Below are positions 21,836-27,595 of a DNA stretch of 64,000 bases, in pieces. The notes under the pieces were generated by a model. That model ran no database searches. It was not told where the DNA came from and was given only the letters and a program-made list of their open reading frames with translations. This DNA is from Escherichia coli. Lineage in GTDB: Bacteria > Pseudomonadota > Gammaproteobacteria > Enterobacterales > Enterobacteriaceae. The DNA lies in NCBI RefSeq assembly GCF_030013205.1, contig NZ_CP122649.1; one strand, written 5' to 3'. Each line of letters opens with the position of its first letter. Positions within the stretch are counted from its first letter, which is position 1. The translations under genes and the position numbers were made by a program.

Positions 21836-23919
21836 TGACAAAATCAAAAAGAACCAACCTGCACGCTCAGGAAAACTTTTACAGGCCGATACTGGAGTAC
21901 AGAAGTGCCTCAGTGCTTTTAATTTGCGCCGTCATAATGCTGGTTATGGGCTTTCGTTCAGATGGGGTGAATATTGCCCCTATCATTCTTTATACCGCTG
22001 TTTTCCTGCTTTTGGTTTGTTTGTACCGTTGTAAAACGGCACACCCCTATTTGATGGCACACTGGCGCGTATTTCAGCGCCAGATAATGTTTATTAGCCT
22101 CAAGTCGCTCAGGACGATCAATAAAAGTAACTTTTTCTCGAACGAGCGAAAGTATCGCCAGCTGGTACAAGAGTATAAAAAAAATAACCGACCAGTACCG
22201 GATAGAAAAACCTACTTTTGTAACGGCTTTGAATGGGGTCCCGAGCATGCAGACCGCGCATATCAAATTGCTAATCTCTCAAGTGACAAAAGAGAGATAG
22301 CCCTGCCATTTGTTCTAAGCCCTATAGCGCGACATTTTGAAACAATGGCCAGATCCATGGGGGGCAATAACGCCATCTTTGCTGTTGACCGGCGGGCACC
22401 CATTTTTGTGACCGAAGATAACTGGTTCGGACATACCCTCATTACCGGAAACGTCGGTACCGGTAAAACGGTACTTCAGCGCTTACTGAGCATCAGCATG
22501 CTGCATTTGGGCCATGTCATTGTGGTTATTGACCCGAAGAATGACGCTGAGTGGCGACAGTCACTGATGGATGAAGCGTCAGAACTGGGGTTGCCATTTT
22601 ATAAATTTCACCCAGCCCAGCCGTCTTCATCGGTGTGTATTGATGTATGCAATGCTTACACAAATGTTTCGGACCTCACCTCACGACTTCTTAGTCTGGT
22701 TTCGGTTCCCGGGGAAGTTAACCCATTCGTGCAATATGCCGAAGCTCTCGTCTCAACGGTGATCACTGGTCTGTCTTACACGGATAAAAAACCGTCGATA
22801 TATCTCATCCACAAAAACATGAAAAGCCATATGTCTGTTGTGAACCTAACGATAAAAGTAATGGAATGCTGCTTTGCACGACACTACGGGCCTGATGTCT
22901 GGATGGAAAAGGTGAAATACGCTTCGAATGACACTCTTCAGGTTCGATTTAAGCGCCTGACAGAATGGTTTAATGCCCATTTTCTTAATTATGAAGGCGC
23001 CGAGCCCATTGAATGGATTGATACCGTCGGTCGGTTAGTGGATTACTCCATGTCTGATCCTGAACACATGTCTAAAATGACGGCGGGTATTATGCCGCTA
23101 TTTAGTCGACTGACTGAACAACCACTGAATGAATTGCTTTCGCCGTCTCCTAATACACTCACTTCGCGTGAAATAGTCACTTCAGATGGGATGTTCAGTA
23201 CCGGCGGAGTTCTGTATATCTCGCTCGATGGCCTTTCCAACCCGGAATCAGCCCGGGCCATTTCGCAGTTGATAATGTCAGATCTTACGTCTTGTGCGGG
23301 TAGTCGTTATAACGCTGACGATGGTGATATGTCTTCCCATTCAAGAATCAGTATTTTCGTCGACGAAGCACACTCTGCCATAAACAATTCAATGATAAAC
23401 TTACTCGCACAGGGTCGTGCCGCTCAAATTGCATTATTTATCTGCACGCAAACTATTTCCGACTTTATTGCAGCAGCGAACGCTGAGACGGCAAACCGTA
23501 TTACAGGTCTATGTAACAACTACATTAGCCTGCGGGTAAACGACACACCAACACAAACGCTGGTCGTAGAAAACTTTGGTAAGAGTCCAATTAGTACAAA
23601 TATGGTCACGTATACGACAGGATCTGAAACCACTTTGCCGCATAATAACTTCTCTGGGTCAATATCAGAAAGAAAGCAAACAACGCTGGAAGAAAGTATT
23701 CCAAAAGAGCTTTTGGGCCAGGTCCCCAAATTCCATATTGTGGCCAGACTTCAGGATGGTCGTAAAGTTGTCGGGCAGATCCCGATTGCCGTAAGTGAAA
23801 AAGCGATGAAACCCAATACGACGTTACTGGAGATGTTCCTGAAACCCGCCGGAAAAGTAACTTTGCGCCAGAATGTGGGTTTAAGCTATTTAAATAAATA
23901 TCTAAGGAAATTGCATTGA
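21835..23919 (+). CDS. traG: type IV coupling protein (VirD4/TraD family; TraG in IncHI naming)
   Basis: Two N-terminal TM helices, Walker A GNVGTGKT, Walker B-like IFVDEAH; start overlaps the relaxase stop. Confidence 0.82.
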   Translation: MTKSKRTNLHAQENFYRPILEYRSASVLLICAVIMLVMGFRSDGVNIAPIILYTAVFLLLVCLYRCKTAHPYLMAHWRVFQRQIMFISLKSLRTINKSNFFSNERKYRQLVQEYKKNNRPVPDRKTYFCNGFEWGPEHADRAYQIANLSSDKREIALPFVLSPIARHFETMARSMGGNNAIFAVDRRAPIFVTEDNWFGHTLITGNVGTGKTVLQRLLSISMLHLGHVIVVIDPKNDAEWRQSLMDEASELGLPFYKFHPAQPSSSVCIDVCNAYTNVSDLTSRLLSLVSVPGEVNPFVQYAEALVSTVITGLSYTDKKPSIYLIHKNMKSHMSVVNLTIKVMECCFARHYGPDVWMEKVKYASNDTLQVRFKRLTEWFNAHFLNYEGAEPIEWIDTVGRLVDYSMSDPEHMSKMTAGIMPLFSRLTEQPLNELLSPSPNTLTSREIVTSDGMFSTGGVLYISLDGLSNPESARAISQLIMSDLTSCAGSRYNADDGDMSSHSRISIFVDEAHSAINNSMINLLAQGRAAQIALFICTQTISDFIAAANAETANRITGLCNNYISLRVNDTPTQTLVVENFGKSPISTNMVTYTTGSETTLPHNNFSGSISERKQTTLEESIPKELLGQVPKFHIVARLQDGRKVVGQIPIAVSEKAMKPNTTLLEMFLKPAGKVTLRQNVGLSYLNKYLRKLH
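22124..22134. promoter_or_regulatory. AAAGTWACTTT palindrome site
   Basis: Exact match inside traG. Confidence 0.5.
23854..23864. promoter_or_regulatory. AAAGTWACTTT palindrome site
   Basis: Exact match at traG 3' end (CCGGAAAAGTAACTTT). Confidence 0.55.
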
Positions 23920-25022
23920 TGGATGAGCAAATTACTCTGACACAAAATCAAATTTTCAGTGCATCTCTGAAAGTAAGTAAAAGCCGCTCGCTCGTTAAGC
24001 GGCGTATGCAATCATTAGGGTTGAAGTTTACCGAATCGCAGGATGTCCGTAACCGACTGGCGGGGATAGAAAAAGGTGCTTTGAAATGTGTGGGGCAATT
24101 TTGCCATGACAACGATGCTGAGTCTTTATCAGCGATGGCGATCATCCTTTCCGAGCTTTTTCTGCTGCAAGGCGAACTGTCCACCAGCAATGAATACGGT
24201 GACCATGAAACGAGTTACTGGACCGTAGCACAAGGCCCATGTGATGAATGGGTCCAGTCTCTGCTGGCGAGCGAAAATGGTCGACGTACATTTAATAGCT
24301 TTCGTATAACTTTCGACAACTCCGAAGAGCGCCGCAGCCTCGTCGAAAAAAATGCCAAAATGCTGGGGAGTTATTTATTGCCTTATTTTGTCAATTTTAC
24401 AAATGCTGCATCTGCGTTTATTACGCTGCCTAATAGCATCACGTTTAAACAGGTGCAACGCAACAAGCCGCTCATTCACCCTGAAACCACATTAAGTCAC
24501 ATTCTCACAATAGAAGATTCGGCGTTTCTCTCTCGGATCAAATTTAAACTTATCTCGGCAATTGACCGTCTGCCCGACCCGTCCGGTCAGTATGCCAACA
24601 TGTTCAATCACATCATGGATCGGGCGCTGCTGACGCACCTCAACCGGGAGCAAATTGATAGCCCTTGTGTGTGCAAAAAGGTCATTTCCACCTATGCAGA
24701 CACTATGCTGACGCTCCCGATATTTAATACGACGATTACCGGGAAATACCGGCACTGGACCCCGTGGGGGATTAATTTTGTCGAGTTTAGTCGTCAGGCT
24801 GCAAAGGAAAAATCTTGTGTCTATGTTCCTGAACCCGGCCAAATTCACTGGAAAAGTCCGGAGCATAAGGAACTGGCAGAGTACAGCCTGATCAACCAGA
24901 TAATCCCGCAGCAATACCACTGGTTGCTGGGTGTGCCGACAATCTGGCGCAGTCACTATCGTGACCATAGCAAACGATTAGACTTATTCAAGGAGTGGAG
25001 GGACACAAATGGCTGCGGATAA
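23916..25022 (+). CDS. hypothetical protein
   Basis: 368 aa, coupled to traG stop. Confidence 0.55.
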   Translation: MMDEQITLTQNQIFSASLKVSKSRSLVKRRMQSLGLKFTESQDVRNRLAGIEKGALKCVGQFCHDNDAESLSAMAIILSELFLLQGELSTSNEYGDHETSYWTVAQGPCDEWVQSLLASENGRRTFNSFRITFDNSEERRSLVEKNAKMLGSYLLPYFVNFTNAASAFITLPNSITFKQVQRNKPLIHPETTLSHILTIEDSAFLSRIKFKLISAIDRLPDPSGQYANMFNHIMDRALLTHLNREQIDSPCVCKKVISTYADTMLTLPIFNTTITGKYRHWTPWGINFVEFSRQAAKEKSCVYVPEPGQIHWKSPEHKELAEYSLINQIIPQQYHWLLGVPTIWRSHYRDHSKRLDLFKEWRDTNGCG

Positions 25023-26865: not shown

Positions 26866-26866
26866 G

Positions 26867-27595
26867 ATGGATGCAATTTTGATGGTGTGGCGAGTGATAG
26901 GAATCAGCATTATTGTCCTAGCACTCATTGTGCTTTACTGCCTGATGGGATTTGTATCGTCGGCCATTGCTGAACGCAGGACAGCCAGACAGATTGAAAT
27001 ATACCTGCCTGATGATGCAGAAGGGCTTCTGAGCGACTTAACGCTGCCGGTCAATGCCACCGGCACCACGCAGATTGATCACGTTCTTATCGCCTCTCAT
27101 GGACTCTACGTCATCGAGCAGAAGAACTATGCAGGAAAGCTCTATGGGAAGCTGGAGGAGAGCCACTGGCGAAAATGGAAATCGTCAGGGACACTAAAGT
27201 TACAAAACCCGTTCAGGCAGAACTACGGGCACATAAGGGCCATTCAGTCCACGTTACGCGCCAGCGAGCTGGAGTGTATCAATGTTGTCATCATTAACGG
27301 CCCCTGCAAGTTTGAAGGTGAGAAGCCAGACTGGCTTTGCATGGGTATGGAGGAGTTCGTTCGGAAAGTCACTGAGAGGCGCCAGTTAAATGTATTCAAG
27401 CCTGAAGCAGTAAGTTTTATCCGTGGAGAGCTGAAGCTAAAGAGAAAGCCTCCGGGCCTTTATACTGATTTGAACCATATCCACAACGTTACCACTCGAT
27501 ACAAAACAACCATGCGGCTGGAGCAGCGTATTACCTATAACCTTTTGCGCTTTTCTCGGCTTATACTGAGTAAAATGTTCAGATCGGCAAAGTAA
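26867..27595 (+). CDS. NERD-domain protein
   Basis: N-terminal TM helix, then HVLIASHGLYVIEQKNYAGKL. Confidence 0.65.
   Translation: MDAILMVWRVIGISIIVLALIVLYCLMGFVSSAIAERRTARQIEIYLPDDAEGLLSDLTLPVNATGTTQIDHVLIASHGLYVIEQKNYAGKLYGKLEESHWRKWKSSGTLKLQNPFRQNYGHIRAIQSTLRASELECINVVIINGPCKFEGEKPDWLCMGMEEFVRKVTERRQLNVFKPEAVSFIRGELKLKRKPPGLYTDLNHIHNVTTRYKTTMRLEQRITYNLLRFSRLILSKMFRSAK

What the first reader, a model, noticed from the sequence alone, without database searches (positions are those of the whole stretch)
23916..27595. Relaxosome operon ends with a membrane S49 peptidase and a NERD-domain protein
After the coupling-protein gene come a 368-aa unknown, a polytopic membrane protein, an SppA-like S49 peptidase and a NERD-domain protein, all tightly coupled and closed by a strong terminator. 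A peptidase and a nuclease-related protein co-transcribed with the relaxase and coupling protein is not a combination I recognise as standard.
Basis: inference. Interest (0 to 1): 0.45.

Follow-up and report, generated by a model that had tools for sequence, protein, structure and literature searches.

The report
IncHI transfer operon's peptidase and nuclease tail
These four genes are the already catalogued, highly conserved end of the DNA-transfer ("H") operon of R27-type IncHI resistance plasmids; only one of them (TraJ) has a described role, and comparison with distant relatives suggests the peptidase serves pilus biogenesis rather than the relaxosome.

Summary
In detail: four tightly coupled genes follow the coupling-protein gene and end at a bidirectional hairpin terminator. 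The locus is not new. It is 100% identical to many IncHI1 plasmids, and its proteins are identical or nearly identical to those of R27, where they are R0118, traJ (R0117), R0116 ("peptidase") and R0115. A published R27 transcriptome lists all four in the H operon and shows them derepressed together.

The "polytopic membrane protein" is TraJ/DtrJ (DUF4400), an essential transfer protein. R0116 is an N-terminally anchored, probably periplasmic S49 peptidase with its Ser203/Lys255 dyad intact. R0115 is a membrane-tethered, probably cytoplasmic NERD protein with an invariant D71/E84/K86 motif. R0118 is an IncHI-only orphan with no recognisable fold.

All three uncharacterised genes are kept in about 1,230 IncHI1/IncHI2 plasmids. 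Their dN/dS (0.08–0.15) matches that of the relaxase and coupling protein.

In distant Vibrio, Shewanella and metagenomic relatives the S49 gene keeps its place after traJ. There it sits directly upstream of the pilin gene traA and traL-E-K-B, and NERD is absent.

My best reading is that the peptidase is a pilus-biogenesis accessory, redundant with host SppA. NERD and the small convergent gene after it are an IncHI-specific addition. Both functions are untested.

The parts
17585..18070 (+). traH (R0122), a MobI-family oriT-recognition factor and the first gene of the H operon
   Evidence: Annotated as MobI(A/C), WP_000045622.1, in pMAK1 and R27. Listed as R0122 = traH (H) in PMC7366339.
18067..18789 (+). 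R0121, a 240-aa conserved unknown protein of the H operon
   Evidence: Identical to R27 WP_000133069.1. A 226-269-aa ORF occupies this position in every related operon examined. dN/dS is 0.093.
18800..21835 (+). traI (R0120), the MOBH relaxase
   Evidence: NCBIfam MobH, 244.7 bits against a cut-off of 200. The RefSeq start corresponds to window 18800; the mechanical ORF begins at TTG 18758.
21835..23919 (+). traG (R0119; named TraD by NCBI), the type IV coupling protein
   Evidence: TIGR03743 SXT_TraD, 627 bits against a cut-off of 366. Listed as R0119 = traG, coupling protein.
23919..25022 (+). R0118, a 367-aa soluble orphan protein restricted to IncHI-type plasmids
25009..25671 (+). traJ (R0117), a DUF4400/DtrJ-like four-TM inner-membrane protein that partners the coupling protein
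   Evidence: PF14348, E 2.4e-12. Identical to R27 WP_000718546.1. TM segments lie at about 10-28, 125-143, 166-184 and 189-207. Listed as R0117 = traJ, relaxosome protein. Described as essential in R27, SXT and Rts1 by PMC10838148.
25684..26865 (+). R0116, a membrane-anchored S49 (SppA-like) serine peptidase
   Evidence: PF01343, E 8.8e-31. Matches B. subtilis SppA 3RST at 2.1e-17, with Ser203 aligned to the nucleophile in the 'AAS' motif of SppA. Lys255 falls at the site that, from memory, is the general-base Lys199, which is Ala in the crystallised K199A mutant. Both residues are conserved in all intact homologues aligned. One TM segment lies at 36-54, with a Lys/Arg-rich N-terminal tail. 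dN/dS is 0.084. Listed as '(H), peptidase'.
26867..27595 (+). R0115, a membrane-tethered NERD (PD-(D/E)xK-like) protein and the last gene of the H operon
   Evidence: PF08378, E 5.3e-23. D71, E84 and K86 are invariant in 15 homologues down to 21% identity. The TM segment is 10-28, followed by ERRTAR. The AF2 model has pLDDT 90.7. Foldseek hits are weak (best E 6e-3), and most of the top-ranked ones are PD-(D/E)xK nucleases. dN/dS is 0.147. Derepressed together with the rest of the H operon.
27596..27623 (.). Bidirectional intrinsic terminator shared with the convergent gene
   Evidence: A 13-nt inverted repeat with a G+C-rich core, flanked by an A run and a T run. Folding energy is -16.6 / -12.1 kcal/mol, and 0 of 200 shuffles fold as well.
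27622..27978 (-). R0114-like 118-aa convergent gene, always found with NERD but not part of the H operon
   Evidence: A homologue follows NERD in every IncHI-type lineage checked (26-87% identity, invariant C-terminal LNP). It also follows NERD in a chromosomal two-gene copy. No family match. Not induced in the htdA mutant.

Best explanation
The region is the distal half of the H operon of an R27-type IncHI1 plasmid: traH, R0121, traI, traG, R0118, traJ, R0116, R0115. It is transcribed from upstream of traH and stopped by a bidirectional hairpin.

**traJ.** This is the known DUF4400 inner-membrane partner of the coupling protein.

**R0116 (inferred).** I read it as an active Ser/Lys S49 peptidase. 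It is anchored by one N-terminal helix, with its catalytic domain in the periplasm. I think it serves pilus and mating-apparatus biogenesis rather than DNA processing. The most likely job is degrading the roughly 43-residue leader peptide released from prepilin TrhA, or trimming the pilin. This would overlap with the host enzymes SppA and SohB, which would explain why it is dispensable in laboratory E. coli matings.

**How it came to sit here (inferred).** The ancestral cluster ran traJ, S49, traA (pilin), traL-E-K-B. IncHI plasmids split that cluster into Tra1 and Tra2 just after the peptidase gene.

**R0115 (inferred).** It is an IncHI-specific addition at that break point. It is a membrane-tethered PD-(D/E)xK-type nuclease domain facing the cytoplasm, translationally coupled to the peptidase gene, and always accompanied by a small convergent gene (R0114-like). 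Its most likely role is to act on DNA at the membrane, for example policing incoming DNA or trimming transferred DNA. That role is conjecture.

**R0118.** It is a soluble protein found only in IncHI-type plasmids, and its role is unknown.
For: **Identity of the locus**
- 100% nucleotide identity over 11.5 kb to many IncHI1 plasmids.
- The TraJ and NERD proteins have the same accessions as in R27. The S49 protein gives 100% tblastn identity to R27. R0118 carries a sibling accession.
- The R27 numbering and H-operon membership come from PMC7366339.

**Co-regulation (published)**
- In the htdA-derepressed plasmid at 25 °C, R0122 to R0115 all rise 4.7- to 11.3-fold. R0116 rises 4.7-fold and R0115 5.6-fold. 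R0114 does not rise.

**Evidence the genes are functional**
- Hit counts match across plasmids. TraJ, S49 and NERD each give 265 IncHI1-type records, and 964, 967 and 970 IncHI2-type records.
- dN/dS is 0.084 (S49), 0.147 (NERD) and 0.090 (R0118). For comparison it is 0.064-0.175 for traG, traJ, traI and traH.
- The catalytic Ser and Lys of S49, and D/E/K of NERD, are conserved.

**Topology**
- Each protein has a single TM helix, and the charge bias around it sets the orientation.

**Link to the pilus**
- Four non-IncHI relatives have the ORF 120-225 bp downstream of S49 as a TrhA-type pilin: Vibrio campbellii pIFL1_1, Shewanella and two metagenomic contigs.
- These ORFs score 26-40 bits on NCBIfam TraA_gammapb, against 32.5 bits for R27 TrhA itself. 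They are 23-36% identical to TrhA. traL-E-K-B follows them.
- One contig (L010) has S49-traA-traL with no Dtr genes upstream.
- In IncC the S49 paralogue sits next to a DsbA/TrbB-like periplasmic oxidoreductase gene.
- In R27, trhA-trhL-E-K heads the Tra2 AC operon.

**Precedent for redundancy with the host**
- The R27 dsbC and F trbB phenotypes appear only in dsbC-null hosts (PMC10838148).

**NERD as a late addition**
- It is present in every IncHI-type lineage where the S49 protein is at least about 45% identical.
- It is absent from all relatives at 34% or below.
Against: - No experiment links R0116 to pilin or to any substrate.
- Adjacency to traA could simply reflect a Dtr operon placed before an Mpf operon. 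In 9 of the 11 loci examined that carry both genes, S49 lies immediately after traJ with a gap of 8-60 nt. That fits a TraJ- or T4CP-related role equally well.
- The TraA_gammapb scores are below the curated cut-off of 50 bits.
- Topology is inferred only from hydropathy and the positive-inside rule.
- From my memory of the abstract of Lawley et al. 2002 (not held in the library), only traH, traI, traG and traJ on this side of oriT were required for transfer. So R0116 and R0115 have no known phenotype, and that is also compatible with roles unrelated to conjugation.
- NERD nuclease activity has not been shown for this protein, and its structural matches are weak (best E 6e-3).
Confidence: 0.5

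Rival explanations
1. The S49 peptidase is a true DNA-transfer component. It would process or quality-control TraJ, which has a predicted periplasmic loop of about 90 aa, or the coupling protein. This would resemble NfeD-type proteases that cleave the stomatin encoded in the same operon.
For: The S49 gene directly follows traJ, with a gap of 8-60 nt, in the window and in IncHI2, IncHI3-type, Vibrio, Motilimonas, Shewanella and metagenomic operons. TraJ residues 29-120 lie between TM1 and TM2, on the side opposite its positively charged loop. The gene is co-derepressed with traJ and traG.
Against: S49 occurs without traJ next to it in L010, where it heads the pilin operon, and in IncC, where it sits beside a DsbA-like gene. 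SXT/Rts1-type MOBH elements have an essential TraJ but no S49 gene at this position.
Confidence: 0.2
2. R0116 and R0115 (with R0114) form a cargo module unrelated to transfer mechanics. It could be a defence, exclusion or competition device that uses a membrane nuclease, riding on the H operon so that it is expressed when the plasmid is transfer-competent.
For: NERD domains occur at the N-termini of the defence proteins MADS6 and PglW (NCBIfam 8.8e-10, PADLOC 1e-3). NERD plus the R0114-like gene exists as an isolated 1.1-kb pair in a Pseudenterobacter chromosome. The S49-NERD junction is tight in all IncHI lineages. Basal R0116 and R0115 expression is the same at 25 and 37 °C, unlike traH and R0121.
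Against: PADLOC finds no system, and the matches cover only the NERD sub-domain. S49 is much older than NERD in this operon and occurs without it. The two proteins are predicted to face opposite sides of the membrane.
Confidence: 0.2
3. The S49 gene is a remnant of a phage prohead protease captured by the plasmid, with no present function.
For: The best PHROG match is the head maturation protease family phrog_53, E 9.9e-34.
Against: There are no capsid or portal genes nearby. The protein has an N-terminal membrane anchor. dN/dS is 0.084, synonymous sites are saturated against IncHI2, and the catalytic dyad is intact. It is retained in about 1,230 plasmids. It scores as well on the SppA models as on the phage one (121.7 bits against 118.4).
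Confidence: 0.02

Closest known systems
H operon of the Tra1 region of IncHI1 plasmid R27 (R0122-R0115; Sherburne 2000 and Lawley 2002 from memory; Gibert et al. 2020, PMC7366339)
   Same: It is the same locus. The proteins are identical or nearly identical and in the same order, and published co-regulation exists.
   Different: Nothing structural. The window is simply another copy of it.
Bacillus subtilis SppA (PDB 3RST/4KWB) and E. coli SppA/SohB, the S49 signal-peptide peptidases
   Same: S49 fold. The Ser nucleophile and general-base Lys align. There is an N-terminal membrane anchor with an extracytoplasmic catalytic domain.
   Different: Below the NCBIfam SppA cut-off (121.7 bits against 155.45). 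The motif is C-A-S-A-C instead of A-A-S-G-G. There is a variable hydrophilic insertion of about 55 aa at residues 132-187. It is plasmid-borne and sits in a conjugation operon.
Plasmid-encoded periplasmic helpers that duplicate host functions (R27 DsbC/HtdT, F TrbB)
   Same: They are conserved in transfer regions, act in the periplasm, and show a phenotype only when the host enzyme is missing (PMC10838148). This is the model I propose for R0116.
   Different: Different chemistry: thiol-disulfide exchange rather than proteolysis. No data exist for R0116.
Pilin-processing peptidases of conjugation systems (RP4 TraF, R27 TrhP, Rts1 Orf185/Orf215; S26 family)
   Same: They are plasmid-encoded envelope serine peptidases dedicated to pilin maturation.
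   Different: They belong to family S26 (LepB/TraF-like), not S49. They are essential for pilus production, whereas R0116 apparently is not.
DtrJ/TraJ (DUF4400) of IncC, SXT and Rts1
   Same: The window's 220-aa protein is a member. It has the same position after the coupling-protein gene and four TM segments.
   Different: Only 19-25% identical to the MOBH12 versions.
Single-domain, membrane-anchored NERD proteins (Pfam PF08378; first described on pXO1, from memory)
   Same: The architecture is an N-terminal TM helix followed by a NERD domain with the D...E-x-K motif. Bacillus plasmid homologues appear in the tblastn search.
   Different: It carries a conserved helical C-terminal extension of about 100 aa. 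It has a fixed position in a conjugation operon and a fixed partner gene, R0114-like.

Membership tests
IncHI Tra1 H operon (R27 R0122-R0115) | Sequence identity and gene order matching R27 | tested here: met
   Many IncHI1 plasmids, including pMAK1, are 100% identical over 11.5 kb. The R27 region shows the same eight genes, with identical or sibling protein accessions.
IncHI Tra1 H operon (R27 R0122-R0115) | Co-transcription or co-regulation with traH, traI, traG and traJ | tested here: met
   Published microarray data show all eight genes 4.7- to 11.3-fold up in htdA-derepressed R27 at 25 °C, and they are labelled '(H)'. The sequence shows overlaps or gaps of at most 12 nt and a terminator only after R0115.
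IncHI Tra1 H operon (R27 R0122-R0115) | Requirement for conjugative transfer | not testable with these tools
   The Lawley 2002 paper is not held. From memory of its abstract, only four ORFs on this side of oriT were required. TraJ essentiality is stated in PMC10838148.
Peptidase family S49 (SppA-like) | Match to the family profile | tested here: met
   PF01343, E 8.8e-31, residues 188-326.
Peptidase family S49 (SppA-like) | Catalytic Ser-Lys dyad | tested here: met
   Ser203 aligns to the nucleophile in the 'AAS' motif of B. subtilis SppA. Lys255 aligns to the position that, from memory, is Lys199, mutated to Ala in the crystallised protein. Both are conserved in the 11 intact homologues aligned, including the IncC paralogue.
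SppA proper (NCBIfam equivalogs TIGR00706/TIGR00705, SohB NF008745) | Score above the curated cut-off | tested here: not met
   121.7 bits against 155.45, 92.2 against 311.45, and 53.5 against 259. It is an S49 member but not an SppA or SohB equivalog.
Peptidase family S49 (SppA-like) | Proteolytic activity and periplasmic location | not testable with these tools
   There is only hydropathy and charge-bias evidence for an N-in/C-out orientation.
NERD domain (PF08378), PD-(D/E)xK superfamily | Profile match and the D...E-x-K motif | tested here: met
   PF08378, E 5.3e-23. D71, E84 and K86 are invariant in 15 sequences.
NERD domain (PF08378), PD-(D/E)xK superfamily | Restriction-endonuclease-like fold | tested here: inconclusive
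   The AF2 model has pLDDT 90.7. Most top-ranked Foldseek hits are PD-(D/E)xK nucleases (R2 endonuclease, AF1548, BspD6I, Can2, Hjc, MGME1), but the best E-value is 6e-3 and TM-scores are about 0.3.
DUF4400 / DtrJ / TraJ | Profile match, polytopic membrane topology, and position after the MOBH-type coupling-protein gene | tested here: met
   PF14348, E 2.4e-12. Four hydrophobic segments. Identical to R27 TraJ. The synteny holds in every related operon examined.
Known anti-phage defence systems (BREX type 2 PglW, MADS) | Full-length match to a system protein and presence of the partner genes | tested here: not met
   The matches cover only the NERD sub-domain of proteins of 612-1,413 aa (37.7 bits against a cut-off of 460; PADLOC E 1e-3). 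No partner genes are present.
Phage prohead (head maturation) protease | Adjacent portal, scaffold and capsid genes | tested here: not met
   phrog_53 matches at E 9.9e-34, but all neighbours are conjugation genes and the protein has a membrane anchor.

The most novel reading that the evidence does not exclude
Two testable ideas remain open.

1. R0116 may be a dedicated conjugation peptidase, inherited with H-type (MOBH11/TrhA-pilin) transfer systems across Enterobacterales, Vibrio and Shewanella. It would carry out a step in pilin maturation: leader clearance, or the processing step that in RP4 is attributed to an unidentified host protease. It would matter in hosts or at temperatures where the host SppA is limiting.

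2. R0115 with R0114 may be a membrane-tethered nuclease with a partner protein, possibly an inhibitor. The pair would act on DNA at the conjugation pore, as an exclusion or defence device expressed together with the transfer genes.
Probability: 0.25. Interest if true: 0.55.

Novelty: already known. Interest (0 to 1): 0.27.

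Why it matters
IncHI plasmids spread multidrug, mcr and carbapenemase resistance. Three of the eight genes in their DNA-transfer operon (four if R0121 is counted) are as strongly conserved as the relaxase, yet have no assigned function.

If the peptidase proves to be a pilus-biogenesis helper that is redundant with host SppA, that would explain why it is dispensable in laboratory matings. It might also help explain host range or the low-temperature transfer of these plasmids.

If the NERD protein is an active membrane nuclease, it would be a new kind of accessory in conjugation or exclusion.

As a scan finding, however, this is a re-discovery of a catalogued locus.

Tried and rejected
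**Papers**
- The primary R27 mutagenesis papers are not held (Lawley 2002 PMC134963, Lawley 2003 PMC145343). The non-essentiality of R0115, R0116 and R0118 therefore rests on my memory of an abstract.
- Searches for R0115/R0116/orf116 found only unrelated papers.
- Searches for S49 peptidase with IncHI or with conjugative transfer and relaxase found nothing relevant.
- Of the papers returned by the search for 'signal peptide peptidase' with IncC terms, none of those listed contained the phrase.

**R0118**
- No match in Pfam, NCBIfam, PHROGs or PADLOC.
- The profile search of 1.84 billion proteins found only IncHI-type relatives.
- hhalign against the shorter 181-190-aa proteins that occupy the same slot in Shewanella, Motilimonas and metagenomic operons gave probability 1.7%. 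Homology is not shown.

**NERD**
- No sequence match to any solved structure.

**Other checks**
- Rfam found nothing in 15-32 kb.
- The consensus terminator scan missed the real hairpin.
- dN/dS against IncHI2 and L012 could not be used because synonymous sites are saturated. A closer plasmid was used instead.
- The apparent truncations of S49 and NERD in L014 come from scaffold gaps (X residues), not decay.
- Rts1 has no S49 gene after traJ.
- The 284-aa gene upstream of the IncC S49 paralogue has no informative family.

Full report
**1. What is there**

ORF listing confirms the four genes at the stated coordinates:
- 23916/23919-25022, 368 or 367 aa.
- 25009-25671, 220 aa.
- 25684-26865, 393 aa.
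- 26867-27595, 242 aa.

They follow a 694-aa coupling-protein gene (21835-23919). Upstream of that is a MobH relaxase gene (NCBIfam MobH 244.7 bits; SXT_TraD 627 bits for the coupling protein).

The junctions are a 1-nt overlap, a 14-nt overlap, a 12-nt gap with an AAGGTGG ribosome-binding site, and a 1-nt gap.

The 26-nt gap after the last gene is filled by the inverted repeat AAAAAACCCTGCA/TGCGGGGTTTTTT. It folds at -16.6 kcal/mol on the + strand and -12.1 on the - strand. None of 200 shuffles fold as well. It therefore serves as a bidirectional terminator shared with a convergent 118-aa gene. The consensus scan missed it.

Domain calls:
- S49 peptidase PF01343, E 8.8e-31.
- NERD PF08378, E 5.3e-23.
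- DUF4400 PF14348, E 2.4e-12, for the membrane protein.
- Nothing for the 367-aa protein.

**2. What the locus is**

An 11.5-kb stretch (17000-28500) is 100% identical to many Escherichia and Salmonella plasmids. These include pMAK1 and pO111_1.

R27 (NC_002305) carries the same eight genes in the same order:
- The MobI, 240-aa, DUF4400 and NERD proteins have the very same accessions as in the 100%-identical pMAK1.
- The S49 protein gives 100% tblastn identity to R27.

So the window is an R27-type IncHI1 plasmid, and the region is the Dtr side of Tra1.

The transcriptome paper of Gibert et al. 2020 (PMC7366339) assigns Tra1 to the R, F and H operons. Its supplementary tables give the labels:
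- R0122 = traH
- R0121 = (H)
- R0120 = traI
- R0119 = traG
- R0118 = (H)
- R0117 = traJ, relaxosome protein
- R0116 = "(H), peptidase"
- R0115 = (H)

In the htdA-derepressed plasmid at 25 °C all eight rise together. From R0122 to R0115 the fold changes are 11.3, 7.7, 11.0, 9.2, 8.6, 7.3, 4.7 and 5.6. The convergent R0114 does not rise.

A comparative preprint already used R0115, R0116 and R0118 as conserved IncHI Tra1 markers.

The "polytopic membrane protein" is TraJ, now called DtrJ in IncC. A systematic deletion study of Rts1 states that DUF4400 TraJ homologues are essential Dtr auxiliary proteins in Rts1, SXT and R27. From memory, Gunton et al. 2007 described R27 TraJ as a membrane partner of the coupling protein TraG.

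**3. Are the three uncharacterised genes real, functional genes?**

tblastn against 72,556 plasmids gives matching counts:

| Protein | IncHI1-type records | IncHI2-type records |
|---|---|---|
| TraJ | 265 | 964 |
| S49 | 265 | 967 |
| NERD | 265 | 970 |

They are therefore retained wherever traJ is.

The full order mobI, x, mobH, traD, y, DUF4400, S49, NERD recurs in several lineages:
- IncHI2, with S49 72% identical.
- Klebsiella IncHI1B/FIB plasmids, 48%.
- Further lineages down to about 45%.

dN/dS was computed against a plasmid about 9% divergent at the protein level (pB18196_2):

| Gene | dN/dS |
|---|---|
| R0118 | 0.090 |
| S49 | 0.084 |
| NERD | 0.147 |
| traG | 0.064 |
| traJ | 0.075 |
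| traI | 0.135 |
| traH | 0.175 |

Against IncHI2, synonymous sites are saturated while the proteins stay 63-72% identical.

The S49 nucleophile (Ser203, in C-A-S-A-C) and the lysine at the general-base position (Lys255) align with B. subtilis SppA. Both are conserved in all intact homologues. NERD residues D71, E84 and K86 are invariant in 15 sequences down to 21% identity.

**4. Anatomy**

*S49 (R0116)*
- It has a Lys/Arg-rich 35-residue N-terminus followed by one hydrophobic helix (36-54). This predicts an N-in, catalytic-domain-out (periplasmic) orientation (inference by the positive-inside rule).
- A hydrophilic insertion at residues 132-187 is variable in length and absent from some homologues.

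*NERD (R0115)*
- It has a hydrophobic helix (10-28) followed by ERRTAR, which predicts a cytoplasmic domain.
- Its AF2 model is confident (pLDDT 90.7).
- Foldseek matches are individually weak. Most of the top-ranked ones are PD-(D/E)xK nucleases.

*R0118*
- It is soluble and its model is good (pLDDT 80, pTM 0.82).
- It resembles nothing solved.
- It has only about six full-length 50%-identity clusters among 1.84 billion proteins.

**5. What distant relatives show**

Homologues of the peptidase at 29-34% identity were located in four contexts:
- Vibrio campbellii pIFL1_1
- a Motilimonas contig
- a Shewanella contig
- a metagenomic contig

Each has mobI, x, TraI_2, T4CP, a short unknown ORF (absent in the Vibrio plasmid), DUF4400 and S49. 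So the peptidase is an old, fixed member of this operon type. NERD and the long R0118 are not.

In three of those four, plus a further contig, the next ORF (120-225 bp downstream) is a pilin:
- It hits NCBIfam TraA_gammapb at 26-40 bits. The proven H-pilin TrhA of R27 scores 32.5 bits on the same model.
- It is 23-36% identical to TrhA.
- It shares the A-x-A leader end, the F..IW and PGKI motifs, and two hydrophobic segments.
- It is followed by traL-E-K-B.

One contig (L010) has S49-traA-traL-E-K-B with no Dtr genes upstream.

In R27, trhA-trhL-trhE-trhK opens the AC operon of the separate Tra2 region. The simplest history is a contiguous cluster traJ, S49, traA, traL. IncHI plasmids broke it immediately after the peptidase gene, with NERD sitting at the break.

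IncC plasmids keep a 28%-identical S49 paralogue elsewhere. There it overlaps an unknown gene and is followed by a DsbA/TrbB-like gene. Rts1 has none after traJ.

**6. Mechanism**

*Shown*
- Operon membership.
- Co-regulation.
- Purifying selection.
- Intact catalytic motifs.
- Single membrane anchors.
- The conserved position between traJ and the pilin gene.

*Inferred for the peptidase*
- It acts in the periplasm on mating-apparatus substrates.
- The most plausible substrate is the long TrhA leader, about 43 residues by the A-x-A rule on the alignment. Trimming of the pilin is the alternative.
- It would duplicate host SppA and SohB.
- There is precedent in plasmid DsbC and TrbB, whose phenotypes appear only in dsbC-null hosts.
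- This would explain the strong conservation despite the apparent dispensability in E. coli matings. The latter point comes from my memory of the Lawley 2002 abstract, which reports nine of fourteen Tra1 ORFs as required, four of them on this side of oriT.

*The main rival*
- The peptidase acts on TraJ or on the coupling protein. This is favoured by the near-universal traJ-S49 adjacency. It is weakened by L010 and IncC.

*For NERD*
- The evidence supports only a membrane-tethered nuclease-like protein that is specific to IncHI and expressed with the transfer genes.
- A role on DNA at the membrane (exclusion, defence or trimming) is conjecture.
- PADLOC recognises no defence system.

**7. Novelty and verdict**

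- The locus is a textbook plasmid region, sequenced in 2000 and annotated by RefSeq as "S49 family peptidase" and "nuclease-related domain-containing protein".
- It is listed in published operon tables.
"Characterised" applies only to traJ.
- What this analysis adds is modest. The peptidase is an ancient companion of H-type transfer modules and a neighbour of the pilin gene. NERD with R0114 is an IncHI-specific pair. All of these genes are under selection as strong as that on the essential genes.
- Interest is low to moderate.

Noticed in passing
window 27622-27978 (-), with 26867-27595 (+); L017 8991-10095: NERD and the convergent 118-aa R0114-like gene travel as a pair. A homologue with an invariant C-terminal LNP follows NERD in every IncHI-type lineage. 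The pair alone (window 26857-27960, 69% nucleotide identity) sits in a Pseudenterobacter timonensis chromosome beside CdiA fragments and an IS. It could be a nuclease with a partner or inhibitor. R0114 has no family match.
   Followed up: partly
window 25684-26865, residues 201-205 of the S49 protein: The catalytic serine is flanked by two cysteines (C-A-S-A-C) in all Dtr-operon homologues. SppA has A-A-S-G-G and the IncC paralogue G-A-S-G-G. Two conserved cysteines in a predicted periplasmic active site, on plasmids that also encode DsbA/DsbC-like proteins, hint at a disulfide or redox control.
   Followed up: no
window 26077-26244 (S49 residues 132-187): A hydrophilic, low-complexity insertion splits the S49 domain. 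Its length and sequence vary between lineages, and it is absent from the Vibrio, ENA11 and IncC homologues.
   Followed up: no
window 17585-27595 (published R27 data): In wild-type R27 only the first two H-operon genes (R0122, R0121) are thermoregulated (12.5- and 8.3-fold, 25 against 37 °C). R0120 to R0115 are flat, and R0116 has the highest basal signal (1498/1424). This suggests attenuation after R0121 and/or internal promoters feeding the distal genes.
   Followed up: no
window 18067-18789 (+): R0121 (240 aa), between traH/mobI and the relaxase gene, is another unknown. A 226-269-aa ORF occupies the same slot in every related MOBH11-type operon examined. It matches only function-unknown PHROGs. 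dN/dS is 0.093.
   Followed up: partly
L008, L009, L011 (ORFs between T4CP and DUF4400): Non-IncHI relatives carry a 181-190-aa ORF where IncHI plasmids have the 367-aa R0118. The Vibrio plasmid has none. Profile comparison does not show homology (probability 1.7%). The slot is conserved but its occupant may have been replaced.
   Followed up: partly
L006 6818-7777 (IncC plasmid pNDM-TAEC1): IncC plasmids carry a 28%-identical S49 paralogue about 7 kb from repA. Its start overlaps an unknown 284-aa gene, and a DsbA/TrbB-like gene follows. I found no paper discussing it.
   Followed up: partly
L008 10100-12100 (Motilimonas contig): After the S49 gene there are about 2 kb with no ORF longer than 65 aa before an RctB-like replication gene, and no pilin or traL there. 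The Mpf genes must lie elsewhere, or this element is only mobilisable.
   Followed up: no
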